In this document: positions 6,851 through 29,948 of the stretch, in pieces
Position numbering within the stretch: the stretch's first letter is position 1
Layout: each line of letters opens with the position of its first letter
Notes under the pieces: generated by a model
What the model was told of the DNA's origin: nothing
Database searches by the model: none
The model's input: the letters and a program-made list of their open reading frames with translations, nothing else
IMG/VR virus record: IMGVR_UViG_3300030118_003585
Span: 1 to 60,507 of that record
DNA from: a virus
Taxonomy: Duplodnaviria > Caudoviricetes
DNA length: 60,507 nt
Direction: 5' to 3' (one strand)
Program-made: the position numbers and the translations under genes

Positions 6851-6883
6851 TATATTATATTGTTTACTTTGTATTATATCTGT
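6851..6883 (-). promoter_or_regulatory. phage promoter motif copy (ACAGA-N4-ATACAAAGTAA-N4-TATAATATA) upstream of the replication operon
   Basis: One of 11 equally spaced copies, each upstream of a minus-strand start codon. Confidence 0.8.
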
Positions 6884-7614
6884 TAATTAATAAAGTCAAT
6901 TATAAAATCACTATCAACAGTGTTTATTAATTTTTCAATAGCTTCTTTTTTAATTTGTGATACTCTTACAAAATCAGAACTACCAACTATATTTAGCAAC
7001 CCAGCTATTTTTTTAGCAGGTAGTTTATCACAGTCAAGACCAAAGCTCATACGCACGACATCATATTCTTTATCATTTAAATGTGTTTTCATTAAAGATA
7101 AAATGTATTTGTTAAGTATATTAATATTATACTCTTTTGATTTATCTTCGACATCTTTTGTCTCATCTATGTTTTTAAAAACAGAATTAAAAAACATTTG
7201 TACCATTTTACGATCTTCACCACTTTGTTTACGCAACTCATTTAATTTATGTTCTGGTATACGTATACCCCCTCTGTTTGTATCAACTGCTCTTCTCACT
7301 GCTCCGTTTATTCTTTTTTTTATAAAACCCTTAATCTGTCTTTCATATTCGTCTTGAGAGTTCATTACTGTCCAGTCAAGCCGATCCAAAGCTAATATTA
7401 AACCTATATTTGCTTCTTGCATTATATCCATTATGTTCATAATACCTGATGCTTTATCAGAAACTGAAAAGCTGCGCGCAATTGTCTCTGCAAAAGGTAT
7501 TAATGTTATTATTAGTTCTTTTCTAGTGTAGTCTTTCCAAGCTTTTTTTTTAGGCAAACAATTTTTTAAATCACGTTTGTATTTGATATAGTTTGCTAAA
7601 TTGTAGCTTTTCAT
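6883..7614 (-). CDS. RNA polymerase sigma-70 family factor
   Basis: Region 2 DIMQEANIGLI...KRINGAVRRAVD...IRIPEH; region 4 HTH KEYDVVRMSFGL...VRVSQIKKEAIEKL. Confidence 0.88.
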   Translation of the reverse strand: MKSYNLANYIKYKRDLKNCLPKKKAWKDYTRKELIITLIPFAETIARSFSVSDKASGIMNIMDIMQEANIGLILALDRLDWTVMNSQDEYERQIKGFIKKRINGAVRRAVDTNRGGIRIPEHKLNELRKQSGEDRKMVQMFFNSVFKNIDETKDVEDKSKEYNINILNKYILSLMKTHLNDKEYDVVRMSFGLDCDKLPAKKIAGLLNIVGSSDFVRVSQIKKEAIEKLINTVDSDFIIDFIN

Positions 7615-9308: not shown

Positions 9309-9536
9309 TTAATCAAGTGTGTTTAATTCATGCTCTACGATTCCACGCGTTACTTTAATAAATTCAAGCGCTACGTCGTTTAAATACTTATCTCGTAACG
9401 GTGAGTTTTTATATTCTTCTTTTATTGCGTAAACGCTTTGCTCATAAGTTATAAGCTCCTGATCTAATTTTGCTAGCAGCGGCGGAACCTCTGCTTTATT
9501 ATAAATTGGAATATGTTTTTTATTATAATTTTTCAT
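9309..9536 (-). CDS. hypothetical protein
   Basis: ORF in a packed operon. Confidence 0.6.
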   Translation of the reverse strand: MKNYNKKHIPIYNKAEVPPLLAKLDQELITYEQSVYAIKEEYKNSPLRDKYLNDVALEFIKVTRGIVEHELNTLD

Positions 9537-9745
9537 GTTTTTGTTTCCATTAAAAAAAGTAAATATTCATATATTATTATTCTTTCATGCCACCATTTTT
9601 TAGCTTGGTTGTTTTGCGCTTTAGTTAAAAACATAGTGTCTTTATAGTTTTTTAATGTAAGCTCAGCTTTAGTTTTTCTTGCCATTAAAAAATCAAACGC
9701 TTTACTGTGTGTCGACTCTTTCTTCATTTTTTTTCTCATTTTCAA
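9533..9745 (-). CDS. hypothetical protein
   Basis: ORF in a packed operon. Confidence 0.55.
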   Translation of the reverse strand: MKMRKKMKKESTHSKAFDFLMARKTKAELTLKNYKDTMFLTKAQNNQAKKWWHERIIIYEYLLFLMETKT

Positions 9746-10094
9746 TTTTACATATATCTAAAAAAGCTTGTTCGTATAATTCAGCTAAATTTGAATCTGA
9801 TCTCTCATCAAGCTCATCATCAAAATATATATAACCACCCATCATATTTTCTATAACTTCTATTATGTCGTCATACCATGAGTCTTCATAGTAACAAACA
9901 TTATCACAAACAGAAAACTCATGTGTTGAAGTTTTTGAAATATAAACTTCATAACCATCTCTTGTTGATTCTCTATAATATAAATGTGTAGCTGCGTACC
10001 AATCATTAGTAATTTCTATATTCCAATAATCTAAAACAGCTTTTTCTAGACTTTGAAAGTCCATTTTAACTAATTGTTTTTCAGTATATTTCAT
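9702..10094 (-). CDS. acidic hypothetical early protein
   Basis: 130-aa ORF directly downstream of a promoter motif. Confidence 0.7.
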   Translation of the reverse strand: MKYTEKQLVKMDFQSLEKAVLDYWNIEITNDWYAATHLYYRESTRDGYEVYISKTSTHEFSVCDNVCYYEDSWYDDIIEVIENMMGGYIYFDDELDERSDSNLAELYEQAFLDICKIENEKKNEERVDTQ

Positions 10095-10107
10095 ATTGTT
10101 AATTTTA

Positions 10108-10140
10108 TATATTATATAAGTTACTTTGTATTAAGACTGT
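10108..10140 (-). promoter_or_regulatory. phage promoter motif copy
   Basis: ACAGTCTTAATACAAAGTAACTTATATAATATA on the minus strand. Confidence 0.8.
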
Positions 10141-10244
10141 AAACTGTTTACTACCCATATTAATACCATGCATATTACAAACAACTTAAAAGTTAAATTA
10201 AGTAGTTTAAATATTTCTTCTTCGTCTTTGTTTCTTCTATTCAT
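10131..10244 (-). CDS. small membrane peptide (37 aa)
   Basis: MNRRNKDEEEIFKLLNLTFKLFVICMVLIWVVNSLQS; hydrophobic C-terminal half. Confidence 0.45.
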   Translation of the reverse strand: MNRRNKDEEEIFKLLNLTFKLFVICMVLIWVVNSLQS

Positions 10245-10246
10245 AA

Positions 10247-10328
10247 TAAAAAAAATAAAGTGTGACAAAAATTACCCGAACACCTCGTGTGCTCTACCAA
10301 GTAATGAAAACCCATGCCACACTTTATT
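10247..10328 (-). terminator. long hairpin with U-tract (terminator or sRNA)
   Basis: 14-bp stem AAUAAAGUGUGGCA/UGUCACACUUUAUU (one G-U), inner stems, U-run, right after a stop codon. Confidence 0.6.
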
Positions 10329-10329
10329 A

Positions 10330-10698
10330 TTACAGTACAAATTCTTTAAAAACAGCTTTTTTACTTTTTGCCATTAAACCGTCTTCAAAAGCTATGGTTA
10401 GTTTTTTACCACCTACGTTCCAGATGTTTGCTATGTTTCTACTATATGACTTATCTCTTTTCCAATCATATATTGTAAACACATTATCGCCTTGTTTTAA
10501 TACCCACTCATAATTTACTTTCTGATCCATTGACTGTCCTAAAATAGGTTCGCCAAACATTTTAACTAGATCATTATAAGTGACATTACACACATAACCT
10601 AATTTAAACGTTCCTGTTGTTATTTTAAACGCCTCTTCTTTTGTCTGTACTTGTTTAAGTTTTTTTAAACCTTTAATTACATTATTAATTCTATTCAT
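10330..10698 (-). CDS. hypothetical phage protein
   Basis: 122-aa ORF (FG-P...KV-x-x-EW...FTIYDWK...WNVGG), immediately 3' of the twister ribozyme. Confidence 0.75.
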   Translation of the reverse strand: MNRINNVIKGLKKLKQVQTKEEAFKITTGTFKLGYVCNVTYNDLVKMFGEPILGQSMDQKVNYEWVLKQGDNVFTIYDWKRDKSYSRNIANIWNVGGKKLTIAFEDGLMAKSKKAVFKEFVL

Positions 10699-10709
10699 AA
10701 CTTATATTT

Positions 10710-10763
10710 GTGCTCACTCTGTATTTACACGGGCTTGTGACCGTCCTTGGCTACATTAAGCAC
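10710..10763 (-). ncRNA. twister ribozyme (type P1)
   Basis: GUGCU UAA UGUA GC CAAGG ACGG U CAC AA GC CCGU GUAAA UACA GA GUG AGCAC: P1, L1 UAA, P2, P4 and both pseudoknots (CAC/GUG, GC/GC) present in canonical order; predicted cut U^A between 10758 and 10757. Confidence 0.93.
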
Positions 10764-11126
10764 GAGTTAGACAATGTATAGACATTGTAAGGTCTAGCTA
10801 ATCGGTTATCCCGCTTAATCTCGATAGCTTGCTGTAGTGTTCAACCACTATTCTCAAGTATTACTACTCATTGAATAATCATATCTGATTACAACAGTCT
10901 GGCTAACCTCAATAGCGTGAGGTGTTCCTTACCATCAGCCAGCTTCATACCTATCATAGAACAATCTATATCGTTCGTAGTAATAGACCTTAATCACTCT
11001 CAGTATATCTCTGATTATCATACTTATATTTATAAGCACGTCGTCTAGATGACTGAGCAACCCCCTACCCCTTGTTCTCGCAAGGCTTGTTGGGTACTAA
11101 CTCTTCGGTAGGTTTGCAACCCTACC
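10764..11126 (-). ncRNA. large structured non-coding RNA, family not recognised
   Basis: No ORF of 60 aa or more, GC-enriched, four long-range helices and about 8 local hairpins; the closing helix ends at the twister. Confidence 0.75.
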
Positions 11127-11140
11127 TACGCATATATAAA

Positions 11141-11218
11141 AGTTGCGGCTGCCAGCCAAAAAATAAATATGAAAAATTCTCTACAGTATAAATCGCACGT
11201 AGAACAGCAGCCACAACT
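11141..11218 (-). ncRNA. hairpin RNA/terminator displaying an anti-start-codon segment
   Basis: 12-bp stem AGUUGUGGCUGC/GCAGCCGCAACU, inner UUCUAC/GUAGAG stem, unpaired UUUUUCAUAUUUAUUUUUU. Confidence 0.55.
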
Positions 11219-11221
11219 ATA

Positions 11222-11518
11222 TTACTTTTTAACTTTATCTAATAATTTTTTTCTCATTTTATCTAGTTCTCTCCAACTATAAAACAGATCATCACCCCAA
11301 TGCATATTCCATGGTGTTATGTTAAGTGCATCACACTTACCTAATATTTTTTCTCTTAACAACCTTGTTTCGCTTATTGTTAACTCCCAATAATTAGCTT
11401 TTGCAAGAGCTTCTTTTATTTCGTTTTTTTCATACTCAAAAGTTTTTTTAGATGCCAAAGCTTTTTCTAGCTTTTTAATTAAACCTTTTCTGAGTTTTTG
11501 TTCTAAATTTTCAAACAT
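11222..11518 (-). CDS. hypothetical protein
   Basis: 98-aa ORF under promoter 11527-11559, co-transcribed with the RNA island. Confidence 0.7.
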   Translation of the reverse strand: MFENLEQKLRKGLIKKLEKALASKKTFEYEKNEIKEALAKANYWELTISETRLLREKILGKCDALNITPWNMHWGDDLFYSWRELDKMRKKLLDKVKK

Positions 11519-11526
11519 ATTTTTAT

Positions 11527-11559
11527 TTTATTATATTATTCACCTTGTATTAAGTCTGT
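11527..11559 (-). promoter_or_regulatory. phage promoter motif copy
   Basis: ACAGACTTAATACAAGGTGAATAATATAATAAA. Confidence 0.7.
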
Positions 11560-11645
11560 AATATCGCAGTGCTCATAACAGCACGAACATATTGGTGATG
11601 TGTATAGCACTTGTGCATTACAGCAGTCACTTAATTGTATATTAC

Positions 11646-11807
11646 TCATTTCCAATTTTTACAACATCTATCACTAATCCAATAATCACCGTACGGATCA
11701 GCTACATTATACTCTGATAACAAACGTCTAGCTTCGTTAATTGTTTCAGCTTCATCTAACGTTTCGTTACCAGTAGTGTTATTAAACTTATAATTTATAT
11801 AAAACAT
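11646..11807 (-). CDS. small hypothetical protein (53 aa)
   Basis: Likely start MFYINYK; the longer ORF call runs into the tRNA-like element. Confidence 0.65.
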   Translation of the reverse strand: MFYINYKFNNTTGNETLDEAETINEARRLLSEYNVADPYGDYWISDRCCKNWK

Positions 11808-11821
11808 TTCTTTATAATTTG

Positions 11822-11895
11822 AGGACGTGGCAGGAGTCGAACCTGCGTCTGGCACCTTTGCTTACGCCGAGGTTGCCGCCAACCATTTCACGCCC
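11822..11895 (-). ncRNA. tmRNA-like tRNA-like domain (mini-tmRNA, no mRNA domain)
   Basis: Acceptor GGGCGUG/CACGUCC with G3:U70, stemless D loop AAAUGGUUGGC, P2-like GGCA(A)CCU/AGGUGCC, GAC linker, T arm GCAGG-UUCGACU-CCUGC. Confidence 0.75.
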
Positions 11896-11900
11896 ATAAA

Positions 11901-11945
11901 GGAGGTAGCGGTACGCCGCGCGTTACTGTTACTGCCACTACCTCC
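11901..11945 (-). ncRNA. GC-rich 11-bp hairpin with 23-nt loop
   Basis: GGAGGUAGUGG/CCGCUACCUCC. Confidence 0.5.
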
Positions 11946-11946
11946 G

Positions 11947-12129
11947 TCGTTAAGTTAGTGTGGTAGGCGCCCGTTTACACTTGCTGGGTTTACGCCAGTA
12001 CATGTACGCTGCCTCGACTTATAACCTCCTATTTCTTAACGATTTCGTTAAGTTAGTGTGATCATTGCGCCCTGTTACCACTACTTTAATAAGTGCAGCT
12101 CGACTTACAGATCTCCTATTTCTTAACGA
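11947..12129 (-). repeat. two tandem structured RNA units (11947-12042, 12045-12129)
   Basis: Shared UCGUUAAGAAAUAGGAG...UAAGUCGAG...GGGCGC...CACACUAACUUAACGA with variable interior and self-complementary ends. Confidence 0.8.
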
Positions 12130-12386
12130 TGACTATAATAATATTCTTCAGAAGCTATGTCTACTATTTCTCGTTCTATGTTATCAAGGGTGTCTTGATT
12201 CATATAGCTTAATAACTCCGCGTATTCATTCCTATGCACTCCATTAATTCTAACTGCCTCATACTCAACATCATAGGCGCTCGGTGTATCACGATCACCT
12301 TCTGAATAAAAATACTTATAGTCTATTTCTAAATCAATATTACCTATAGTATACTCTAATGTTCCTTGAACGTGTTTGCCTACCAT
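12123..12386 (-). CDS. acidic hypothetical early protein
   Basis: 87-aa ORF whose stop lies inside the first repeat arm. Confidence 0.6.
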   Translation of the reverse strand: MVGKHVQGTLEYTIGNIDLEIDYKYFYSEGDRDTPSAYDVEYEAVRINGVHRNEYAELLSYMNQDTLDNIEREIVDIASEEYYYSHR

Positions 12387-12595
12387 TTATCTATCCTTTT
12401 AAGTAAATTATCATAGGTTATATCCTCTAATAAACTAAACTCTTCTTGCGTTAATTTATCTGACCAAGCGCTATAACTTAAATCATTGTTTATAGTTTTG
12501 TATATATACTCAGCTATATTACTTTCAAGCTCATCTAAGAACATCTTGTACTCTTTTGAGTTTGTAATTTGGTCATCTTCAATTATTTTGTTCAT
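12380..12595 (-). CDS. hypothetical early protein
   Basis: ORF downstream of promoter 12609-12641. Confidence 0.65.
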   Translation of the reverse strand: MNKIIEDDQITNSKEYKMFLDELESNIAEYIYKTINNDLSYSAWSDKLTQEEFSLLEDITYDNLLKRIDKW

Positions 12596-12608
12596 TTTTT
12601 AATTTATT

Positions 12609-12641
12609 ATTATTATACTCTTTACTTTGTAATCTATCTGT
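12609..12641 (-). promoter_or_regulatory. phage promoter motif copy
   Basis: Matches the 33-bp consensus. Confidence 0.7.
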
Positions 12642-12705
12642 ATTACTAAGTAATCTACGTATTTCTCTATTACGTTTTATTGCGTGTAGCATTTGTCTTT
12701 CTTTC

Positions 12706-12948
12706 CTATGCCTCATCTTCATATTCTTCTCGTTCAAGCTCATCTGCGTGTTCTTGCCATCTATCTAATGCTTCTTCTATTTCTCTTTCCATACACACAA
12801 TACTTTTAGCGTGCATCAAAAGATCTCGTAACGCATCAGCTTCATAATCAGACATGTCAACACTCATTTCACCGTTTTCAATTGCATGTACACAATCTTC
12901 TAAATCGTCCGCTGTATTTTCAAAGCGGCAGTAACTCATATTACCCAT
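12706..12948 (-). CDS. very acidic hypothetical protein
   Basis: MGNMSYCRFENT...; D/E-rich. Confidence 0.7.
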   Translation of the reverse strand: MGNMSYCRFENTADDLEDCVHAIENGEMSVDMSDYEADALRDLLMHAKSIVCMEREIEEALDRWQEHADELEREEYEDEA

Positions 12949-12964
12949 AGTTTTAATTATTTAA

Positions 12965-13159
12965 TTATTTACGCCTCCAAGATTTATGAACTAATTCAGA
13001 TAGCTCTTGGCTAACTATTTGAATTGTATTACCCGTCTTGTGTTCAATGATAGGTACATAGCTATACGTTTTGACTGTTGAACAGCGAACACACGTTCTG
13101 TAACCATAGTTTAATCTGGCTTGCGGTATTGTTACACCGCATCTACAATATTTATTCAT
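12965..13159 (-). CDS. TraR/DksA-like C4 zinc-finger protein
   Basis: CRCGVTIPQARLNYGYRTCVRC resembles CxxCGxxIPxxRL...CxxC. Confidence 0.6.
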   Translation of the reverse strand: MNKYCRCGVTIPQARLNYGYRTCVRCSTVKTYSYVPIIEHKTGNTIQIVSQELSELVHKSWRRK

Positions 13160-16702: not shown

Positions 16703-19700
16703 ATGGCTAGAATAAGCAATTATGCTTTTGATACTAACGTAAATAGGCAAGATTTTGTTTTTGGTACTGATAGTTCAACTAACGGTACTAAGAACTTTAA
16801 ATTTGTAGATCTTACAGAGTTTTTTGCACAGCAACAAGAGATATTAGGCAATAAGTTTGCATATAAATATATTAGTGTATCTGATTATAGTAATCTTGCA
16901 GCTGCAGAATTAAGCTTTAATGTCACAACAAGTACTGTAAACTTTTCTGCAATAACAGATATTTACATATATAAGATCAACGCACACGCTGTAGATATAG
17001 AAGCTTATTTAACAGAAATAAAAACCGCAGGTGGTGCACTTACTATATTCAACGGTGCTCAAACTACATCATTTGGTGTATTTAAAATAACTAATATATC
17101 ATCGCATAGCACAAATGTATTAAGACTACAAGTAACAGTAATATCTAAAAATGGATCAATACAAGATAAAAATCTGGCAAATGTATCATTTATATCTCCA
17201 AGTAGCGCAAGTATATTCACAGGCGTAACAACTACAACATCTTCACAATTAACATTAACAAACCCTAACGGACCGGTTGCAACACTTGATATTGTAACAG
17301 GTGCCGTATCTAATAACGGGTCGGGCCTTGCTACGCAAGCGCAAATAAAAAGTTATGTTGATTCACAAATAACAGCACAAGATTTAGACTTCCAAGGTGA
17401 TTCAGGCGGTGCGTTAAACATTGATCTTGACTCTGAAACATTAACTATTACTGGTGGCAGCGGTGTATCTACAGCGGGTAGCGGTAATACTATTACTATT
17501 AATGTAGATCATGATGCAATAACTAATTTTGTAGCTAATGAACATGTTGACCATACAGCAGTGTCTATAACAGCTGGTAATGGTTTAACAGGCGGCGGAA
17601 CTATAGCTTCTACAAGAACAATAGATGTAGGTGAAGGTACAGGTATAACTGTTAGCGCAGATGCAATATCTACTAATGATAGCGAAATAGTTCATGATAA
17701 TTTAAGTGGATTTGTAGCTAATGAGCATATTGATCACAGCGCAGTAACATTAACTGCAGGAACAGGTTTATCAGGTGGTGGCGATATAACAGCTAATAGA
17801 ACATTTAATTTAGCTAACACGTCTGTAACCGCTGGATCATACGGTAGCGCAACAGCAATACCAACATTTACTGTAGATGCACAAGGTAGATTAACGGCTG
17901 CTGGTACTGCATCTATATCTACATCATTTACAATATCAGATGGCTCAACTACTGATTTAGTTAATACTAGCGAAACATTATCTTTTGTAGGAACTACAAA
18001 CGAAATAGAAACTGCAGTAACAAATAATCAAGTACAAATAGGTATTGTAACTAACCCAACATTAACTGGTAATACAACGGTAACAGGAAGTTTAGATGTT
18101 GCAGGAGTAATTAAATTTACTGGTGGCTATGTATTAGATTCAGTACACAGCTTGAGATTAGATTCTGCCGCAAGCCAACCAATTACATTTAGTGTAGCAG
18201 ATAGTGAAAAGATGCGTTTAACATCAACAGGTAATTTTGGTATTGGAACAACAACCCCGGCGTATAAAATTGATATATCAGGTAGTTTAAGAGCAACAGG
18301 CGAAAGTACATTTACATCTAATTTATTGTTTCCTGATAATTCTAGAATAAAACTAGGGACTGGCCAGGATCTAGAAATATTCCACGATGGCAATAGTGTT
18401 ATTAGAAATCAAACTGCTGACTTATTTATTGATAATTATGCTGATGATGGAGATATAAAATTTAGGACTGATGATGGCACTGGTTCTCAAACAGAATATA
18501 TGAGACTAGATGGAGGTTCAACAAACATTGTATTTAGTAAAGATTTATTCCTTAATGATAATGTTAATTTAGGTATGGGTAATGGTGGTGATTATGCACA
18601 ATTTCATGATGGCACCAATACTTATTTATCAAATGGCACTGGAGATTTTTATATAAGAAATCAAGCAGACGACAAAGATATTATATTTCAAGCTGATGAT
18701 GGTAGTGGAGGTAATACTGCTTATTTAAGATTAGATGGTTCTGACAGTATGATGAAGGCTCATAAGAAATTAAGATTTTTAGATACTGTTGAAGCTGCTT
18801 TTGGTAATAATGATGACCTAAAAATATATCACGATGGATCAAATTCTTATGTTTATGATGCAGGTACAGGCGAATTAAGATTGAATTCTGATAACGCAGT
18901 AAGAATAAGAAAACACGACAATGAAACTATGGCATTGTTTACTGTTAATGGTTCTGTTGACTTATATTACGACAATAGTAAAAAGTTTGGAACTACATCA
19001 GATGGAGTTACAATTACAGGTAGTCTAAGTGCTACTACTGAATCTTTTTTCTATGGTGGCTTTTTAGTAACAGATACAAAAATAGGTAAATTTGGAACAG
19101 GTGGAGATTTACAAATATTCCATAACGGTAGTAATTCATTTATAACAAATTTTACAGGTAATCTTACAATTACAAATGAAGCAAACGATAAAGATATTGT
19201 ATTTAAATCTGATGATGGATCTGGAGGGTTTACTGAATATTTAACTCTTGATGGAAGCGCTGAAAAAATATTGATGCATAAATCAACAGTTTTTACAGGT
19301 GGTGGTATGGATTATGGTGTTGACGGTACTGGTGCAGATGTTATATTTTACGGAGATACTGCTGGTAGAAATATGAAGTGGGATCAAAGCGAAGATCATT
19401 TATTATTTACGGATAATACTAAATTAAAACTTGGTACAGGTGGAGACTTAGAAATATATCACGATGGTAGTAATAGTAATTATATCAGATCTACAACTAG
19501 CGATATATATATTAGAAATGAAGGTGATAATGATAGAATATTTATTCAAGCTACAAATAGCAGCACGTTAGCCAACTATTTAACTATTGACGGTAATGTA
19601 GCACTAACAAAATTTCATAAAAACACAAAGCACACAGATAGTATAAAAGCTACTTTTGGCGATAGTTCAGACCTAGAAATATATCATAATGGGAATGATT

Positions 19701-22700
19701 CAGTTATTGATAATTTAACAGGTGACTTATATATTTCTAACAAGGCAGATGATAAAGATATTATATTTAGAGGCGATGATGGTAGTGGAGGATTTACTGA
19801 ATATCTTAGGCTAGATGGCAGTAATACGAATATGGTAGCGTCTAAAACTATTTTATTTTCTGATAATGTAAAAGCTAGTTTTGGTAATAATGAAGATTTA
19901 AGGATCGTACATAATGGAACAAATACAGAATTTAATAATTATAATGGAGGTGTAAATTTTGTTCAACACCAGACTGATGGTGATATGGCATTTTATGCTG
20001 ACGGTGGTTCTGGTTCTGCTGTAGAATATTTTAGGTTAGATGGTAGTCAAACATCTATCAGAATGAAACGTATTACTAAATGGGACGATAACATCAAGGC
20101 TACTTTTGGCGATAGTGGAGATTTAGAAATTTATCATGATGGCAGTAATAGTTATATTAACGAAACAGGTACAGGCGGTTTAAAAATACAAGCTAGAGAT
20201 GCTATAACATTAGAAGACGGCACTACAGGTGAAAATTATATTTATATGCAACGTGATGGTAAAGTTGAACTTTACTATGATGGTTCTGCTAAATTACAAA
20301 CTACAGCCGGCGGAATAGATATAACAGGAACACTAGATACTTCAGGCACTATTGTTTCTACAGGAGGTAATATTAGAGTTGGAAGTGATACTGGTAAGTT
20401 TTTAGCAGGAGCATCAAATGATTTACAAATATATCATGATGGTTCTAATAGTTATATTCAAGATGCAGGTACAGGAAGTTTAATTATTGAAGGCACTACA
20501 TCAACACAAATTAAAGGTAGCGTTTTTGTTATTTTAAGATCTTTAGCAGGTGAAAATATGCTTATTGGTAATGCAAATGGAAGTGTTGATTTATACTATG
20601 ACGCCGTTAAAAAATTAGAAACAACAAGTACAGGTGCAACTGTAACAGGAGACATATTAGCTACCGCTGGAAATATAACATTAGGAACAGATAGTGTTGC
20701 TGGTAACGTTTTAACACCAAGCGATGTTTTAGCATTTACAGTAGATTCAAATAGTAATACAAGCGGTACACCAAATATACAGTTTAAAGTTGGTTCAAGT
20801 GAAAAGATGCGTTTAACATCAGCAGGTAATTTAGGCATAGGCACAGCAAGCCCTAACAGAGAACTTCACGTCATAGGACAGGTTGCAATAGACAACTCAA
20901 CGTCTCCAACAGCAGGTTTTTTAATTACAGGCGATGGTACTTCCAATAAAATTTATTCAAGAGTTGCAAATAATAGTAGTACTGCACATGAATTAGAGTT
21001 TATATTAGGTTCAACTACTGCTTTAACAATATTTCCAGATTTAGCTGCAACTTTTGCAGGTAATGTTACAGTTGGGGGTAACCTAATTGTCAATGGTACA
21101 ACAACCACGTTAAATACACAAACAGTAGAAGTTGAAGATAATATATTACAATTAAACACAACTCAAGGATCACCAGATACAGCTACAGCAACCACATCTG
21201 GTATATCTGTATATAGAGGTAACGGTGTTACACAAGCAAGCTTTATATTTGACGACGCGGACGATACATGGGATTTATCAAATAATTTAGTTATAGAAAA
21301 CACAAGTTCTACTACAAATGATTCCGTTAGCGTATTAAATTTAAAAAGTTTATCTTCTGGTACAACCGCAAATGGCTTTGGTGTAGGTTTAGGGTTTTTT
21401 ACTGAAAACTCAACATATTCTACAGTTAATGAATTAGGTAGGATAGAAGTTGTAGAAACTTCGGAAGTTAATTTGCATGATAAAATGATTTTTTATGTTA
21501 AGCATAATAATGTGCTTGCTGAAAGATTAAATATAACTGGTACAGGTTCAAATTTTGCAAGCAGTGTAACAGCTAAATCTTCTGGATCAAACATAGATGA
21601 AATATCACTAATACATTCTGGTAATACTGTAAAAATAGCTTCATTAGGTCAAAGCTCCGGACACGGTAGTCTAACATTAAGGAATAATAGTGGCGTTGAA
21701 ACAATTTCTGCGTCAACAGATGGAACTGACAGTACAATAAATAATGGTACAGGAAACCTACTTATACAAAACACAGCTAATGATAAAGATATAATATTGA
21801 AGTCAGATGACGGATCGGGCGGAACTACAGAATATTTTAGGTTAGATGGTGGAAACACAAATATTATAGTTTCAAAAGAAATGAGGTTTGGTGATGGTGT
21901 TCAAGCGCAGTTTGGCGCAAGTAACAATCTACAAATACAACATAACAGTGCTAATGGCTCAATAACAAATGCAACAGGCGATTTAACAATACAAAACAGT
22001 GCGGATGATAAAGATATTATATTTAGAACTGATTCTGGCGATGGTGGTACGACTGAATATTTTAGATTAGATGGTAGTGCAGAAAGAAATGTAGCATCTA
22101 AAGAAATAAACCATATAGATAATGTTTATGCAACTTTTGGTACAGGTAGAGATTTAAGATTAATACATGATGGCTCTAATAGTTTCTTTGAAAGTTATAA
22201 TCATAATTTATATATAGATCAAAACTTCGATGATGGAGATATAGTATTTAGAAATGACAATGGTTCAGGCGGTAAAACTACTTATATGACTATTGATGGT
22301 GGAGATGAATTAGTTAAGTTTTCAAGGGGCACTAAACATGCTGACAACGTAAGGGCGCTTTTTGGTAGTGGTTCTGATTTAAATATTTATCATGATGGTA
22401 ATAATTCGATTATTGATAACAATGCAGGAGATATAATTTTAAGATGTGATAGTGATGACATAAAAATATTAGCAGAAGATGATATTGTATTAAGAGATAA
22501 TGATGATAGTACAAATTTTATACATTGTATCAATGGTGGTGCTGTGAAATTATATCATAATGGTAGCGAAAAGTTTGAAACACAAAATACAGGTGTAAAA
22601 GTAACAGGTAATATTACTGTATCATCAGGCGTTGCTATTTTTAATGATGGCAATGGAATAAACTTTGGAAATAGCGATGCAAAAATCTATGGTTCAACTG

Positions 22701-25700
22701 GTACTGGTATACAATTTAATGCAGGTGGTTCAGAAGCAATGCGTCTTAATCAATCTGGTAATTTAGGAATTGGAACAACCTCACCTACGTCGCGTTTAAC
22801 GGTAAAAAGCACTGCAGTTGCTTTAGCAAACCAACCATTAATAGTAGCTAATTTTGATGGAACAGGAACAGACGGTTTAGCATTAATATCTGTAGATCAT
22901 ACAACAGTTAGTACCGCTGCTGCTTTAGGTGCTGGTATAAGATTTAAAACAGGTGATGGAACAACTGGTTCTAACACAAAACCTGGTTATATATTTATGC
23001 AAGGTGCTGGTAATAGTGATATAAAATATATAGCGCCAAGAGCTCATGCTTTTTATGTCGATCATCATGATGATGACTTAACAGGCACAACTTATACTGA
23101 TTATGGTACTTTATCGTTAACATTAAATGAAAATGCTTCTGCAACTTTTGCAGGTAAAATTATTGGTCAAAAAGGTATAGAAATTACTGGTGGTACTATA
23201 GCAAGTTCAACAGCGGTATTACATACAAATAATGTCATTTATTTTAGAGGCGGTAGTAATGGTTTGTTTTTACAAAATTCAGATGGTAGTGATGGTATTT
23301 TTATTGCAAATGATCACATTAAATTTGAAACAGGGAGTTCAGAAAGAATCCGTATTAATTCTTCAGGAAATGTTGGTATTGGAACGACAAGCCCTTCAGG
23401 CGCTTTACACGTGTATAATGGAACATCAGAAAGATTTTTAATTACTGGAGATGTACACGTTCAAGGTTCAACTGATTTAAATATTAATGGAACAAGTAGA
23501 CGATTAAGTTTTACAGCTGGAAGTGGTACAATAAGAACTACAACTGGTAATAGTTTAATACTACAAACAGACAACACTGATGGAATTGTAATTGATGGTT
23601 CTACACAAAAAGTGGGAATAGGAACTGCATCGCCTCAAAATAATTTACATATCTTTAGTGCCGGCAATGCAGAATTAGTATTAGAGCGCAATAGTGGAGC
23701 CGAAATATTACTGCAAGCTCAATCATCAGCAGGTGTAGTAGGAACTCAAACAAATAATGATTTAGATTTAAAAACTAATTCTACTACTAGGATAAGAATA
23801 AAAAATAATGGTAAGGTAGGTATCGGAACAACTTCACCGGGCTCTGAATTACATATAAAACAGGGAGATGACAGCGGTTTTGACGGCGGTTTAACTATTG
23901 AAAGAAGCGCTAATACACAAAAAGTTCATATAGGCATGGATGGTGGTGCTGTTAATTTTAACAGCCCTGATGGTTTAAGTTATAAATTTAGAAATAATAG
24001 TACAGAAAAATTTACTATAGATGGTTCAGGCAATGTAACAGCAAGTGGGTCTAGTAGTTCTTTTGGTACAGGTAATAGCGGTACTTTTATTACAAGCGAT
24101 ACAAATAACTATCCAAGAATTACAATACATCAAGCTAGTGCTCAATTAGGATTATTTAGATCAGGTAATGCTGTTGGAGGTATGTATATAGGCGGTAATG
24201 AAACTGGTTTCCGTATATTTACAGACTCTTTTGCCGAAAAATTTCATTTAGATCAAAGCGGTAATGGAACCTTTGCAGGTTCTGTTTTTACACAATTTAT
24301 AAAAAGTAACTCATCAGTTAGGATTGATATTGATAGCGATAATAACCAAACAGATAGATCATTTTTAATTAGCAAAGACAACGCTGGTACTGAATTGATG
24401 AGAGTTAATGAAGATGGGACTGTTGGTATTGGAACAAGTTCACCTCAAGCTTTATTACACCTTACAGGTACTGGATTACAAGGAGTGCAAGCTTGGTTTG
24501 GTAATGGATTTATAAATAATTCAAATTACCATTATGATTTTGCTAGAGTTGGTTTTTCTGTTCAAGCTACAGATGGTTCTGATACAGGCGCAGGATTTCA
24601 TTTTAATACAAGAAATACAGCAAACAGCAACTGGATGCACGGATATATATATCAACCTCAAAACGGAGGTATAGCGTTTGGTACAGGTGGTGCTGGAACT
24701 ACCTTAGCAACAGAAAAAATGCGCTTAACATCAACAGGTAGTTTAGGAATCGGAACTTCATCTCCTGCTCAAAAATTAGATGTTGAAGGTAACACTAAAT
24801 TAGATTTCAGTTTAATTGGTAGAGGTTTTAGGTCAGCAAATAGAGGTGAATTACATTTAAATGCAACCGGCGCAGATGATGTTGCTGAAATGTTTTTTGG
24901 TCATGGTTCTGGTCATACTGAAGGAAATATTAGATGGGGTATTTCAGACAGAGGTAATTCTAATGGTCAATTACACATTTATCAGGGTCCAGCTTTAGGT
25001 GGTTTTCATCCATTAATGACGTTTAAATCAAGTAACGATTGTGTTGGGATTAATGTAACAGCACCTACTATAAGATTAGATGTTAATGCAGACGCGAGTG
25101 ATAGTGTCGCAAGGTTTACATCAACAGATTCAAATGCAAGAATATTAATTGCAGACGTTGATGATACAATGTACGTAGGTACACAATCAAATAAATTTTA
25201 TATAGGTGCTAACGATAGTGCAACATCTGGTAATTTAATTATTGATACTTCTGGAAACGTAGGAATCGCAACTACTTCGCCTTTGCATAATTTACAAATA
25301 GGTACAGCAGCTACAAACGGTAGTTATTCAATGATGATAGAAGGTAATTTTGGTAATGATGCGTTAGCTTCTAATCCTAGATTAAATTTAATTGACACTA
25401 ATTTTGGAATTACAGCTGGAAAATATGGTAGTGGAACATCAAATGATGCATTAGGAATTTTTGCATATCAAGGCAGTGGAAGAGGTATAATATTTGGCCA
25501 TACAACAGCAGGCACAACTACACATTTAAAAGATATGCGCCATGATATGTTTATAGATGGCGGAGATGGTGATATAGGTATCGGAACGACTACGCCTAGT
25601 ACTAAGCTACACGTGTACGGAACTTTTGATCCTGACGACGCTTTAGGTTATGTTCATATAGAAAATGCTAGTACAACATCGGGCAACCAATCAACAAACG

Positions 25701-28379: not shown

Positions 28380-29948
28380 ATGGAATTTAATAACCCGAGT
28401 CAAATCGTAAAAAATTTGTCTTTTGGTAATGAGGCAAATGCAAAAATAATAGAAGGTGTTGAAACGTTAACTAATGCCGTTAAGTCAACACTTGGGGCTT
28501 CTGGTAAGTGTGTTATATATGAAGACGCAAGAGGAAAACCAGTAATAACAAAAGACGGTGTAACTGTAGCAGAGTCTGTTATCCTAATGGATCCTGTCAA
28601 GAATATAGGTTGTACACTTATAAAAGAAGCCGCTAGCAACACTGTTAAAGAAGCAGGAGATGGCACAACTACAGCAACTGTACTGGCTTATCATATATTA
28701 AAATTAGCTACAGAGCAAAAGCAAGAAAATAATTTAAGAATTATAAAATCTGGCATCGATACTTATTTAGAAAAAGTAATTAAGTATTTAAATAAAAGCT
28801 CAAAAAAAGTTGTTGGTAAAATGCTTGATCAAGTTTCTACAATTAGCTGCAACAATGATAAAGTTTTAGGTAATATTATATCAGAAGCTTATAAAGTTGT
28901 AGGTAAAAATGGTGTAGTTTTAATGGAAGAATCACAAACTGAAGAAACATACTTTGAAACAGTAGATGGTGTACAGTTTGATAGTCCATTAAAATCACAA
29001 CATTTAGCAACAAATGAAGATAAAGATAAATCTATATTAGATAATCCTTATATATTAATTGTTGCATCACCTATACCTAATATAAGAAAGATACAAGCTG
29101 TACTAGAGCATACTATAAAAAACAAAAGATCTTTATTAATTGTTGCTAATGTAGATCAACAACCTACAGCTGCTTTAATGACAAACAAAGTAAAAGGTAA
29201 TATTAAAGTTAATATTATAGATTTACCAGGTTTTGGTTCAACAAAAAGAGATACATTAGAAGACTTAGCTTGTTTGACAGGAGCAAAAATAATCGATGAA
29301 CAATTAGGTGATGATTTAGATTTAATACAACCTGATGTTTTAGGCGAAGCTTTAAAAAGTGTTACAGATAATAAAAATACTGTAATTACAATAAATGAGG
29401 TACCTGACATAGCTACAGAGCGTATTGATTTAGTTGAAGAAAAAATTAAAAAAGAAAAAGATCCGTTTATAAAAATAAAACTAGAACAAAGACTAGCAAT
29501 GTTATCAGGATCTGTCGGTATTGTCAAAGTAGGAGCTAATAGCAAAATAGAATTAAAAGAAAAAAAAGACAGAGTTGAAGATGCTATTTATGCTACTAAA
29601 GCCGCTTTACAAGAAGGTATTGTTGCAGGTGGTGGTGTTGCTTTGTTAAACGCATCGGAAAAAATTAAAGCAGTAAACGTAGGTGAAATGGTATTATCAG
29701 AAGCTATAAAACAACCATTTTATACAATTATAAATAATGCTGATATTATACCACCTATAAAACTACAACCTAAAAAAGGTATAAATGTAGTAACAGGAGA
29801 TGTTGTAGATATGATAAAATCTGGAATTATAGATCCAGTATTAGTTACAAAAACGGCTTTAAAAAACGCTGTTAGCGTTGCTAAAACCATAATATCTGCA
29901 GACTGTGTAATATCAAATAAAAGAGTTGAAGAAGATGCAAGCAGTTAA
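28380..29948 (+). CDS. groEL: chaperonin GroEL (Cpn60)
   Basis: ITKDGVTVA, AGDGTTTATVLA, GIVAGGG, IIDP motifs. Confidence 0.97.
   Translation: MEFNNPSQIVKNLSFGNEANAKIIEGVETLTNAVKSTLGASGKCVIYEDARGKPVITKDGVTVAESVILMDPVKNIGCTLIKEAASNTVKEAGDGTTTATVLAYHILKLATEQKQENNLRIIKSGIDTYLEKVIKYLNKSSKKVVGKMLDQVSTISCNNDKVLGNIISEAYKVVGKNGVVLMEESQTEETYFETVDGVQFDSPLKSQHLATNEDKDKSILDNPYILIVASPIPNIRKIQAVLEHTIKNKRSLLIVANVDQQPTAALMTNKVKGNIKVNIIDLPGFGSTKRDTLEDLACLTGAKIIDEQLGDDLDLIQPDVLGEALKSVTDNKNTVITINEVPDIATERIDLVEEKIKKEKDPFIKIKLEQRLAMLSGSVGIVKVGANSKIELKEKKDRVEDAIYATKAALQEGIVAGGGVALLNASEKIKAVNVGEMVLSEAIKQPFYTIINNADIIPPIKLQPKKGINVVTGDVVDMIKSGIIDPVLVTKTALKNAVSVAKTIISADCVISNKRVEEDASS

What the first reader, a model, noticed from the sequence alone, without database searches (positions are those of the whole stretch)
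10764..11126. Unrecognised ~340-360 nt multi-domain RNA, apparently ribozyme-processed
Seen (plus-strand coordinates): closing helix 10764-10770/11097-11103, nested helices 10788-10796/10984-10992, 10861-10867/10977-10983 and 10899-10906/10935-10942. Local hairpins lie near 10771, 10835, 10876, 10907, 10956, 11000, 11019, 11070 and 11107. Segment 11051-11060 could form two adjacent 5-bp pseudoknots with 10895-10899 and 10829-10833. G-U pairs favour the minus strand. I see no RNase P, group I/II intron, tmRNA or SRP signatures. Inference: a new class of large phage ncRNA (ribozyme, scaffold or anti-defence decoy). This is the best candidate for an undescribed system, possibly acting with the flanking 98-aa and 122-aa proteins.
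Basis: partly seen in the sequence, partly recalled or inferred. Interest (0 to 1): 0.9.

Follow-up and report, generated by a model that had tools for sequence, protein, structure and literature searches.

The report
Twister-tailed large structured phage RNA
A marine phage makes a roughly 370-base, intricately folded non-coding RNA whose tail end is cut by a built-in self-cleaving (twister) ribozyme; it belongs to a previously uncatalogued RNA family shared by two unrelated phage groups, and its job is still unknown.

Summary
On the minus strand, 11131..10758 encodes a ~374-nt RNA. It folds better than shuffles (z -5.3) and matches no Rfam family, even at E<=10.

A compact twister-P1 ribozyme follows directly (10762..10711, 56.2 bits, E 3.5e-11).

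I found 17 full-length and 3 truncated relatives in marine viral and metagenome contigs. Every one has a twister directly 3'.

They form two clades that are about 52% identical to each other. The clades sit in phage lineages whose terminases are only 23-24% identical.

Covariation is strong:
- Clade B: 102 pairs, 32 with double changes, 0/500 shuffles.
- Family-wide 5' domain: 30 of 42 pairs with double changes.

A model built from clade B alone finds the window RNA (E 5e-11).

Metatranscriptome contigs from four studies cover only this RNA. One is a 365-nt contig spanning 10760-11124.

What was not supported:
- any link to the 98-aa and 122-aa proteins.

A different pseudoknot is supported, and so is an invariant palindromic hairpin loop.

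Function is unknown. My best reading is a stable, trans-acting, possibly self-associating RNA whose 3' end is matured by the twister.

First-stage notes of this scan describe the same family on two other genomes.

The parts
10758..11131 (-). Mature large RNA, about 374 nt. The 5' end is near 11131-11116. The 3' end is at the predicted twister cut after 10758.
   Evidence: Family alignment limits. RNA-library contigs: 10760-11124 (a whole 365-nt contig, no loose ends), 10809-11116, 10810-11035 plus 10938-11131, and 10740-10905 plus 10928-11123.
11107..11126 (-). P1: 6-bp hairpin outside the closing helix. Its 8-nt loop holds the palindrome UUGCAA.
   Evidence: The stem covaries: all 5 modelled pairs have double changes family-wide (strands; L344). 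The loop hexamer is identical in all 17 full-length members.
11097..11103 (-). P2 closing helix, 5' strand. Pairs with 10764-10770.
   Evidence: Four different compensating versions across the family. In clade B, 2 of 7 pairs have double changes and none is broken.
10764..10770 (-). P2 closing helix, 3' strand. It is followed by the 6-nt tail 10763-10758, of which 10763-10759 form the 5' strand of twister P1.
10999..11095 (-). 5' domain: P3 (11092-11095/11060-11063), P3a hairpin (11081-11085/11070-11074), P4 (11052-11057/10999-11004, register ambiguous) and P4b hairpin (11032-11040/11019-11027).
   Evidence: A covariance model built from clade B only matches window 10990-11128(-) at 49.3 bits, E about 5e-11. 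Family-wide, 42 pairs are 99.1% paired and 30 have double changes.
11041..11054 (-). Near-invariant 14-nt motif containing a 3-bp mini-hairpin (P4a in clade B). Probably a functional or tertiary-contact site.
   Evidence: Conserved in all members apart from single-base changes. No antisense target in the phage genome beyond chance: 6 matches with up to 3 mismatches, the motif's own site (one exact match and an overlapping opposite-strand match) plus four others with 2-3 mismatches, against 2.8 +/- 1.6 expected.
10985..10992 (-). P5 long-range helix, 5' strand. Pairs with 10788-10795.
   Evidence: One double change plus one wobble change between the window and L270. The clade B equivalent has 4 of 7 pairs with double changes.
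10788..10795 (-). P5 long-range helix, 3' strand.
10835..10976 (-). Central domain: P5a hairpin (10959-10976), P6 5' strand (10951-10955), P7/P7a (10899-10942), P8 hairpin (10875-10892) and P10 hairpin (10835-10850).
   Evidence: Homologous helices in clade B carry double changes. Coordinates and pairs were checked.
10823..10827 (-). P6 3' strand. Pairs with 10951-10955. The MFE fold misses this helix.
   Evidence: Conserved flanking sequence on both strands, and G-C/C-G and other exchanges between clades.
11075..11078 (-). Pseudoknot PK1, loop side (in the P3a hexaloop). Pairs with 10958-10961.
   Evidence: A-U becomes G-C as a double change in L270. In clade B, 12 of 12 sequences are compatible over 6 pairs, with one U-A to G-C double change in L238.
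10958..10961 (-). Pseudoknot PK1, partner side. It overlaps the outer pairs of P5a, so the two pairings are alternatives there.
10772..10813 (-). P11 hairpin (10803-10813) and P12 hairpin (10772-10787).
   Evidence: P12 has two double changes and two wobble changes among the window, L164 and L270.
10711..10762 (-). Compact type-P1 twister ribozyme lacking the optional hairpin. Predicted cut between 10758 and 10757.
   Evidence: Rfam RF03160: 56.2 bits, E 3.5e-11, whole model matched, below the gathering score of 67.2. Twisters of relatives score 41.9-56.2 bits, 8 of 8 scanned. P1 covaries. The position of the cut within the motif is recalled knowledge.
11141..11218 (-). Upstream long hairpin ending in a T-run (terminator-like), directly before the RNA. 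Not part of the conserved RNA.
   Evidence: Terminator-like site at 11158..11146. The hairpin is kept in L165 with stem changes. RNA contigs do not cover it. It is present upstream in only some family members.

Best explanation
The stretch encodes a member of an uncatalogued family of large (about 375-430 nt), highly structured, phage-encoded non-coding RNAs. A cis-acting twister ribozyme makes the 3' end.

Proposed course of events:
1. The RNA is transcribed on the minus strand within the early-gene region.
2. Once the twister just downstream has folded, it cuts after U10758.
3. The RNA is released with a 2',3'-cyclic phosphate on a 6-nt tail behind its closing helix.
4. The downstream message starts with a 5'-OH and the folded ribozyme.
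5. The released RNA folds into about 15 helices closed by P2, tied by at least one loop-to-linker pseudoknot.
6. It persists as a discrete stable species while the neighbouring messages do not.

Inferred, not shown: it acts in trans as a structural RNA. It may associate with itself through the invariant palindromic loop of hairpin P1 (dimer or higher), in the manner of ROOL, GOLLD and OLE RNAs. Alternatively it may bind a host factor. The near-invariant 14-nt motif would be the likely active or contact site.

The unit of RNA plus twister behaves as a transferable cassette.
For: Structure above chance: z -5.33.

No known family: 0 Rfam matches at gathering thresholds in the window, 0 at E<=10 on 10755-11140, and nothing but twisters at E<=0.05 in 8 relatives.

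Family membership: 17 full-length and 3 contig-truncated members.

Formal homology: a model built from clade B only finds the window at 49.3 bits, E about 5e-11.

Covariation:
- Clade B: 102 pairs, 98.9% of cells paired, 32 pairs with double changes against 19.5 +/- 2.3 in shuffles (0/500), slid controls 1-5.
- Clade A: 101 pairs, 6 with double changes, 3/500 shuffles.
- Family-wide 5' domain: 30 of 42 pairs with double changes, 0/500 shuffles.

Non-coding: the longest internal ORF is 18-43 aa.

Twister linkage:
- All 14 IMG/VR members found with a 5'-domain pattern that does not require a twister have one directly 3'.
- 8 of 8 were confirmed by the Rfam model.

Expression:
- 6 RNA-library runs hold about half of the 523-nt query.
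- In 4 runs from 4 studies, the contigs laid on 10699-11221 all lie within 10740-11131.
- One whole 365-nt contig spans 10760-11124.
- No genuine cover of either flanking ORF.

Cassette behaviour:
- Absent, together with the twister, from 24 of 24 searched records of TerL relatives (positive control).
- Replaced by another cargo in L165.
- Present in lineages whose TerL is 23-24% identical.

The palindromic loop is invariant, including in 13 of 13 full-length members retrieved by a pattern that does not contain it. Symmetric palindromic kissing loops are the signature of RNA homo-oligomers in OLE, GOLLD and ROOL (PMC12286853, passages read).
Against: - Self-cleavage was not assayed, and the twister scores below Rfam's gathering score (56.2 against 67.2).
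- Contigs cannot show RNA ends, strand or level, and RNA libraries can contain DNA (tool caveat).
- One RNA-library contig (10740-10905) runs 18 nt past the predicted cut, so uncleaved precursor or DNA is present.
- How the 5' end forms is unknown. No consensus sigma-70 promoter was reported upstream. In several relatives the RNA starts right after, or overlapping, an upstream ORF stop.
- Nothing tests self-association. The loop never varies, so covariation cannot support an intermolecular pairing.
- No function-revealing partner gene is conserved.
- The family-wide alignment was fitted to the model structure and leans towards it.
Confidence: 0.8

Rival explanations
1. The structured RNA is a cis-regulatory leader, a sensor or 'aptazyme' domain. 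Its folding or ligand state would control twister cleavage and so the fate of the downstream message. It would not be a trans-acting RNA.
For: The RNA is always immediately 5' of the twister. The closing helix abuts twister P1 with no linker, so the two folds could be coupled. An ORF always follows within about 60-190 nt of the RNA's end.
Against: The downstream genes belong to at least five unrelated families across members. The size and the roughly 15 helices far exceed known riboswitch aptamers. RNA-library contigs cover the RNA but not the downstream ORF, as expected for a stable product rather than a leader.
Confidence: 0.12
2. The RNA-plus-twister unit is a selfish mobile cassette, possibly derived from a viroid-like, retrozyme-like or intron-like element. 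It would spread among phages without serving them.
For: Patchy distribution within the window's lineage (0 of 24 searched relatives). Presence in an unrelated lineage. Replacement by another cargo between conserved flanks in L165.
Against: Only one ribozyme flanks it. No back-joined (circular) junction or loose end appeared in the RNA contigs (tables 5 and 7). There is no transposase, reverse transcriptase or homing endonuclease nearby. Strong purifying selection acts on about 100 base pairs across clades.
Confidence: 0.1
3. It is a very divergent member of a known large RNA class (GOLLD, ROOL, group I intron, RNase P, 6S, tmRNA) that the Rfam models miss.
For: Phage-encoded large RNAs such as GOLLD and ROOL vary widely. 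A tmRNA-like tRNA domain lies 700 nt upstream, and a weak tRNA-like match lies 80 nt upstream in L270. That context recalls GOLLD and ROOL (PMC12286853, passages read).
Against: No Rfam match at E<=10 on the RNA alone, where filters are most permissive. None in 8 relatives at E<=0.05. The RNA interrupts no gene, so it is not an intron.
Confidence: 0.04
4. There is no functional RNA. The fold is a chance or compositional effect in a GC-enriched spacer, or the region encodes small proteins.
For: ORFs of 41-43 aa exist inside the region in the window.
Against: Compensatory changes far exceed the controls. The internal ORFs are not conserved, with longest ORFs of 18-36 aa in clade B. RNA-library cover is confined to the element.
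Confidence: 0.01

Closest known systems
GOLLD and ROOL (and OLE) large 'ornate' RNAs
   Same: - Large, many-helix, pseudoknotted non-coding RNAs of unknown function, encoded by phages or prophages and often near tRNA-like genes.
- Conserved palindromic hairpin loops that make symmetric kissing contacts between copies (PMC12286853, passages read).
- ROOL and GOLLD context also appears in PMC5737381 (passages read).
   Different: - No sequence or structure match to any Rfam model.
- Smaller (about 375-430 nt, against about 580-800+ nt; the larger sizes are partly recalled, and PMC12286853 says many GOLLD exceed 800 nt).
- Always carries a 3' twister.
- Found so far only in uncultured marine phages.
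- Oligomerisation is untested here.
Theta (HDV-like) ribozymes next to phage tRNAs
   Same: A small self-cleaving ribozyme sits in cis with its cut site abutting the 3' end of a phage non-coding RNA. The proposed role is to mature that end without host RNases (PMC10879173, abstract and passages read).
   Different: The ribozyme class is twister, not HDV-like. The cargo is a 374-nt unknown RNA, not a tRNA. The phages are marine, not gut.
Type-P1 twister ribozyme (Rfam RF03160)
   Same: The 3' element matches the whole model with the conserved core. P1 and P2 covary among relatives.
   Different: It lacks the optional hairpin and so falls below the gathering score. Most compact twisters of this subtype in IMG/VR sit 37 nt or less behind an ORF (43 of 58 scorable) and are preceded by a short GC hairpin. 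Here a large RNA sits in that position.
Early, persistent long non-coding RNAs of Cellulophaga phage phi14:2
   Same: Intergenic RNAs of a marine Bacteroidota phage that are more abundant than most messages, present from early infection, and of unknown function (bioRxiv 10.1101/2020.03.07.982082, passages read).
   Different: No sequence relation was detected. blastn of three family members against 50,697 GenBank phage records hit only a twister in one gut phage. That paper's passages mention no ribozyme.
phi29 prohead RNA (pRNA)
   Different: No Rfam match. This phage has a large terminase and a portal but no evidence of an RNA-dependent packaging motor. The loop here is self-complementary rather than a pair of complementary loops.

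Membership tests
Twister-P1 ribozyme (RF03160), for 10711-10762 | Match to the covariance model over its full length with the conserved core nucleotides. | tested here: met
   Model positions 1-68 of 68 matched, E 3.5e-11. E 1.5e-13 in the whole-record search.
Twister-P1 ribozyme (RF03160), for 10711-10762 | Score at or above Rfam's curated gathering score (67.2 bits). | tested here: not met
   56.2 bits. The shortfall coincides with the missing optional hairpin (model positions 14-33 are replaced by 5 nt). This is a curated threshold, not a structural feature.
Twister-P1 ribozyme (RF03160), for 10711-10762 | Helices kept by compensatory change among homologues. | tested here: met
   P1 has a U-A to C-G double change in L270. 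P2 occurs in three complementary versions across the family (sequences).
Twister-P1 ribozyme (RF03160), for 10711-10762 | Self-cleavage at the U-A step, giving a 2',3'-cyclic phosphate and a 5'-OH. | not testable with these tools
   The only hint is indirect: a 365-nt RNA-library contig ends at 10760, 2 nt from the predicted cut.
GOLLD / ROOL / OLE / raiA large RNAs | Match to the family's Rfam covariance model. | tested here: not met
   No match to any of 4227 families at E<=10 on 10755-11140 or at gathering scores in the window.
GOLLD / ROOL / OLE / raiA large RNAs | RNA-only homo-oligomer held by symmetric kissing loops. | not testable with these tools
   Only the invariant palindromic P1 loop is seen.
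Group I/II intron, RNase P, tmRNA, SRP, 6S | Match to the family's Rfam covariance model. For introns, also interruption of a gene. | tested here: not met
   The RNA lies between complete ORFs. The tmRNA-like match at 11819-11895 is a separate element.
Ribozyme-matured phage ncRNA (theta-ribozyme/tRNA type arrangement) | A self-cleaving ribozyme whose cut site abuts the 3' end of the ncRNA, conserved among relatives. | tested here: met
   All 17 full-length members have a twister starting 0-1 nt after the 6-nt tail. 8 of 8 were confirmed by the Rfam model.
Ribozyme-matured phage ncRNA (theta-ribozyme/tRNA type arrangement) | HDV-like ribozyme fold and a tRNA cargo. | tested here: not met
   The ribozyme is a twister. 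ARAGORN finds no tRNA in the window or in 16 related loci.
The new family itself (twister-tailed large RNA) | Match of the window to a covariance model built without it or its clade. | tested here: met
   Model R1 (clade B 5' domain only): window 10990-11128(-), 49.3 bits, E about 5e-11, full model length.

The most novel reading that the evidence does not exclude
This is a new class of self-assembling RNA: a dimer or larger RNA-only particle built through the invariant palindromic P1 loop. It would be a further natural example beside OLE, ROOL and GOLLD, and the first whose exact 3' end is set by a ribozyme. That would also give the twister class a defined natural job: it tails a non-coding RNA inside a phage operon and at the same time insulates the downstream message. 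The near-invariant 14-nt motif could then be a binding or catalytic site aimed at a host factor early in infection.
Probability: 0.25. Interest if true: 0.9.

Novelty: new variant of a known kind. Interest (0 to 1): 0.72.

Why it matters
**A role for twister ribozymes.** Twisters are widespread, but their biological roles are largely unknown. Here one is invariably coupled to the 3' end of a conserved large RNA. That suggests a concrete and testable role: ribozyme tailing of a non-coding RNA embedded in a phage operon.

**An uncatalogued large RNA.** The RNA has about 15 helices plus a pseudoknot, matches nothing in Rfam 15, and turns up in marine RNA libraries from several studies. Large, ornate natural RNAs are rare. 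Those studied recently turned out to form unexpected RNA-only assemblies.

**Well-defined material for experiments.** The family has exactly predicted ends, an invariant self-complementary loop and enough natural variation for structure work.

**Evidence of selection for the cassette.** It is shared by two unrelated phage lineages, and a near-identical strain carries a different cargo in the same slot. This points to selection for whatever these early phage RNAs do.

Tried and rejected
**Routes that did not find relatives**
1. Flanking proteins. Single-protein scans of IMG/VR found no relatives of either the 122-aa or the 98-aa protein. The 122-aa family alignment gave 205 loci. I examined the best 80. 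None has the RNA by nhmmer or blastn, and none has a twister core by regex.
3. TerL relatives at 75-79% identity. I searched 24 of the 80 kept loci, choosing the longer records. There was no blastn match to the RNA and no twister. The control on the window's own record was positive. Many of these records are fragments.
4. GenBank phages. Only the twister of one gut phage matched, and a third query matched nothing. In that gut phage the twister sits in a short spacer with no large RNA.
5. Prokaryote genomes. 45 pattern matches, none belonging to the family.

**Structural and functional ideas dropped**
6. The MFE fold of the central part is replaced by the homology-guided fold.
8. Antisense targets of the 14-nt motif within the phage are at chance level.
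9. A C/D-box-like kink-turn at P7/P7a is present in most but not all of clade B and absent in clade A (by eye). I did not pursue it.
10. No tRNAs by ARAGORN.
11. The L165 cargo has no copy in 347 other fetched loci.
12. Parts of the laid stretch have no contig cover in the RNA runs.

**Papers.** Supplements were closed and I did not consult them. They may hold motif lists (PMC5737381) or ribozyme contexts (PMC10879173) that bear on novelty. None listed this RNA.
Full report
**Setting**

The window is a whole IMG/VR virus record of 60,507 bases, estimated 94% complete. Genes around the finding run on the minus strand.

Reading the minus strand 5' to 3', the layout is:
- a 98-aa ORF (11518..11222);
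- a long hairpin ending in a T-run (11218..11141; terminator-like site);
- the structured stretch of the finding;
- a twister ribozyme (10762..10711);
- a 122-aa ORF (10698..10330).

G+C rises to about 0.39-0.42 over the element, against about 0.28-0.32 in the flanks.

Yes.
Shuffles average -84.7 +/- 4.7 (z -5.33; 0 of 100 as good).
- The plus strand reaches only -94.2 kcal/mol (z -4.47).
- Rfam 15 gives no match at gathering thresholds in the whole window.
- With permissive filters, the region 9500-13000 gives only three matches:
  - a twister-P1 match (56.2 bits, E 3.5e-11, full model, below the 67.2-bit gathering score);
  - a tmRNA-like tRNA domain at 11819-11895;
  - a chance-level miRNA match.
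- The structured stretch alone matches nothing at E<=10.

**Finding relatives**

Several routes failed.
- Flanking proteins. The 122-aa protein belongs to a widespread phage family: 205 IMG/VR loci, of which the best 80 were kept. None of those 80 has the RNA or a twister core.
- Large-terminase relatives (75-79% identity; more than 600 hits, best 80 kept). I searched 24 of the longer records. None has the RNA by blastn or a twister by the Rfam model. The same search finds the window's own twister.

The single metagenome scan gave three close relatives:
- one identical copy;
- L164, whose locus is 96% identical while the 523-nt spacer differs at only 4 positions;
- L165, whose flanks are about 94% identical. 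It keeps the hairpin and an identical twister, but the large RNA is replaced by an unrelated 119-nt stretch closed by its own 7-bp helix (fold z -3.0).

The breakthrough was a scan for this compact twister subtype, which returned 61 IMG/VR loci.
- In 43 of the 58 scorable loci, the twister lies 37 nt or less behind an ORF. By eye, a short GC hairpin precedes it.
- Two AT-rich loci with long gene-free gaps, L187 and L203, hold a diverged homologue of the large RNA.

I then scanned with motifs conserved between the two versions and confirmed the hits with nhmmer.
- The family now has 17 full-length members (18 with the identical copy) plus 3 cut by contig ends.
- None is in 185,579 prokaryote species genomes by pattern plus profile.
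- None is in 50,697 GenBank phage records by blastn.

**Two clades**

- Clade A (window, L164, L270) and clade B (14 sequences including L344) are 49-55% identical to each other. Within clade B, identity is 75-99% (which did not include L344).
- L270's record has a terminase 83% identical to the window's.
- Three clade B records have terminases only 23-24% identical. A fourth showed no match; that record is 69% complete.
- The RNA is therefore shared by two unrelated phage lineages, and it is patchy within the window's own lineage.
- A covariance model built from the clade B 5' domain alone finds the window at 10990-11128(-) with 49.3 bits, E about 5e-11, over the full model length.

**Structure**

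Clade B (12 sequences):
- RNAalifold predicts 102 pairs in 17 helices.
- 98.9% of cells are paired.
- 32 pairs have changes on both sides, against 19.5 +/- 2.3 in shuffles (0 of 500).
- Slid controls give 1-5 such pairs.

Clade A:
- I transferred the helices to the window by homology and checked them by coordinates.
- The result is 91 pairs, 5 of them G-U. Its energy is -95.4 kcal/mol, against -110.5 for the MFE, which is wrong in the central part.
- On the clade A alignment, which adds PK1 and two twister helices (101 pairs), 6 pairs show double changes. They lie in P1, PK1, P5, P12 (two) and twister P1. Only 3 of 500 shuffles do as well, and slid controls give 0-1.

Family-wide 5' domain:
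- 30 of 42 pairs have double changes (0 of 500 shuffles; slid controls 3-11).
- This alignment was fitted to the model's structure and leans towards it.

- Confirmed: the closing helix, 10788-10796/10984-10992, 10899-10906/10935-10942, and eight of the nine hairpins.
- Not conserved: helix 10861-10867/10977-10983, which crosses the homology-supported P6, and the two pseudoknots.
- A different pseudoknot is supported. The P3a hexaloop pairs with the linker before P6. All 12 clade B sequences are compatible, and there is one independent double change in each clade.

**Invariant features**

- The 8-nt loop of hairpin P1 contains the self-complementary hexamer UUGCAA in all 17 full-length members. 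The stem beneath it changes completely.
- Part of that invariance is ascertainment, because the pattern contains the hexamer. However, the pattern does not, and all 13 full-length members it returned have it.
- A 14-nt motif (11054..11041) is nearly invariant. It has no antisense target in the phage beyond chance.

**Ribozyme linkage**

- All 14 IMG/VR members retrieved with the 5'-domain pattern, which does not require a twister, have one beginning right after a 6-nt tail behind the closing helix.
- 8 of 8 members scanned with Rfam confirm it, at 41.9-56.2 bits.
- The twisters covary in P1 and P2.
- From recalled knowledge of twister chemistry, the cut lies between U10758 and A10757. It would leave a cyclic phosphate on the large RNA and a 5'-OH on the ribozyme-headed downstream message.

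**Expression**

- Of the 24 public runs listed, 20 hold the 523-nt stretch or part of it: 14 DNA and 6 RNA libraries, from 13 studies. Each RNA library holds about half of its words.
- I laid four RNA runs from four studies on 10000-12400. Around the finding, the contigs cover only the RNA:
  - 10760-11124, a whole 365-nt contig with no loose ends;
  - 10809-11116;
  - 10810-11035 and 10938-11131;
  - 10740-10905 and 10928-11123.
- The two small pieces on the flanking ORFs have loose ends on both sides and are not genuine.
- No back-joined junction was reported.
- Of 11 variant positions in these contigs, 8 fall in unpaired positions. Two keep a pair as G-U, and one turns a G-U into U-U, as in L270.
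- Caveats: contigs cannot prove ends, strand or abundance. One contig crosses the predicted cut by 18 nt.

**Context and partners**

- No protein partner is conserved.
- The 98-aa protein occurs only in the window's nearest relatives.
- The 122-aa homologue lies upstream of the RNA in L270.
- Neither protein matches Pfam or PHROGs.
- In clade B the RNA sits upstream of small ORFs, a ~200-aa ORF and a family-A DNA polymerase.
- In the window it sits upstream of an HTH protein, a sigma-like factor and a primase/helicase.
- Both positions are early or replication regions.

**Interpretation**

Shown:
- a conserved, structured, non-coding RNA family with an obligatory 3' twister;
- cover in RNA libraries restricted to the RNA;
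- cassette-like distribution.

Inferred:
- The twister tails the RNA. This lets it sit inside an operon without a terminator, and it insulates the downstream message.
- The RNA is a stable trans-acting molecule.
- The palindromic loop mediates self-association, as the symmetric kissing loops of OLE, GOLLD and ROOL do (PMC12286853, passages read).

The nearest processing analogue is the theta ribozyme next to phage tRNAs (PMC10879173, abstract and passages read). Abundant early long non-coding RNAs of unknown function are known in the marine phage phi14:2 (bioRxiv 10.1101/2020.03.07.982082, passages read), but I detected no relation to them.

**Novelty**

- I found no description in Rfam 15 or in five literature searches. 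Supplements were closed.
- Within this scan, first-stage notes on two other genomes describe what is clearly the same family. e1-6356445 shares 67 of 74 words with L203's RNA. e1-6106521 lists helices that match clade B.
- Other follow-ups report different twister-linked phage RNAs, including a GOLLD-like one. These are unchecked AI notes. I used them only as leads.

Noticed in passing
L165:339-457 (equivalent to window 10764-11126): A phage strain with about 94% identical flanks keeps the upstream hairpin and an identical twister. In place of the 374-nt RNA it carries an unrelated 119-nt structured cargo closed by its own 7-bp helix (z -3.0). The slot before the twister seems to accept interchangeable RNAs. 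No other copy of this cargo occurs in 347 fetched loci.
   Followed up: partly
L166-L226 (61 IMG/VR loci): Compact twisters lacking the optional hairpin are common in phage contigs. In 43 of 58 scorable loci they lie 37 nt or less after an ORF. By eye, a GC-rich hairpin directly precedes them, as if the ribozyme makes a hairpin-protected 3' end for the upstream message.
   Followed up: partly
L175:7285-7672 (+): Another 388-nt gene-free, strongly structured stretch (MFE -131 kcal/mol, z -4.5) ends at a twister. Neither nhmmer nor the covariance model places it in this family, so it may be a second twister-tailed large RNA.
   Followed up: partly
window 11819-11895 (-); L270:7400-7499 (+): A tmRNA-like tRNA domain without a tag-coding part (Rfam tmRNA 31.7 bits, below threshold) lies about 700 nt upstream of the RNA. 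In L270 a weak tRNA-like match (22.7 bits, E 0.043) lies about 80 nt upstream. ARAGORN calls neither.
   Followed up: partly
window 11947-12129: RNA-library contigs of two studies join 12025 to 12113, skipping 87 nt with 18 shared letters. That is a variant with one copy fewer of the tandem ~90-nt unit. This neighbouring RNA-like region is also present in RNA libraries.
   Followed up: no
window 11141-11218 (-): The long hairpin before the RNA ends in a T-run and looks like a terminator for the 98-aa gene. Several relatives have a similar hairpin plus an A/T-rich box just before the RNA, while others have the RNA directly after an ORF stop. How the 5' end is made is unexplained.
   Followed up: partly
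window 16703-26437 (+), 6883-7614 (-), 28380-29948 (+): The 3244-aa ORF has only a C-terminal Peptidase_S74 (endosialidase chaperone) hit, so it looks like a giant tail fibre rather than a virion RNA polymerase. The phage also encodes a sigma-factor-like protein and a GroEL-like chaperonin.
   Followed up: no
clade B loci, junction of helices P7 and P7a (A5 columns 212-274): Most clade B members have tandem G-A on both strands next to a U-U and Watson-Crick pairs, like a box C/D kink-turn. Some members and clade A lack it.
   Followed up: no
L279 and L291 (A5 columns 212-262): Two members carry an insertion of about 40 nt, an extra hairpin, inside P7. This shows where the fold tolerates expansion.
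   Followed up: no
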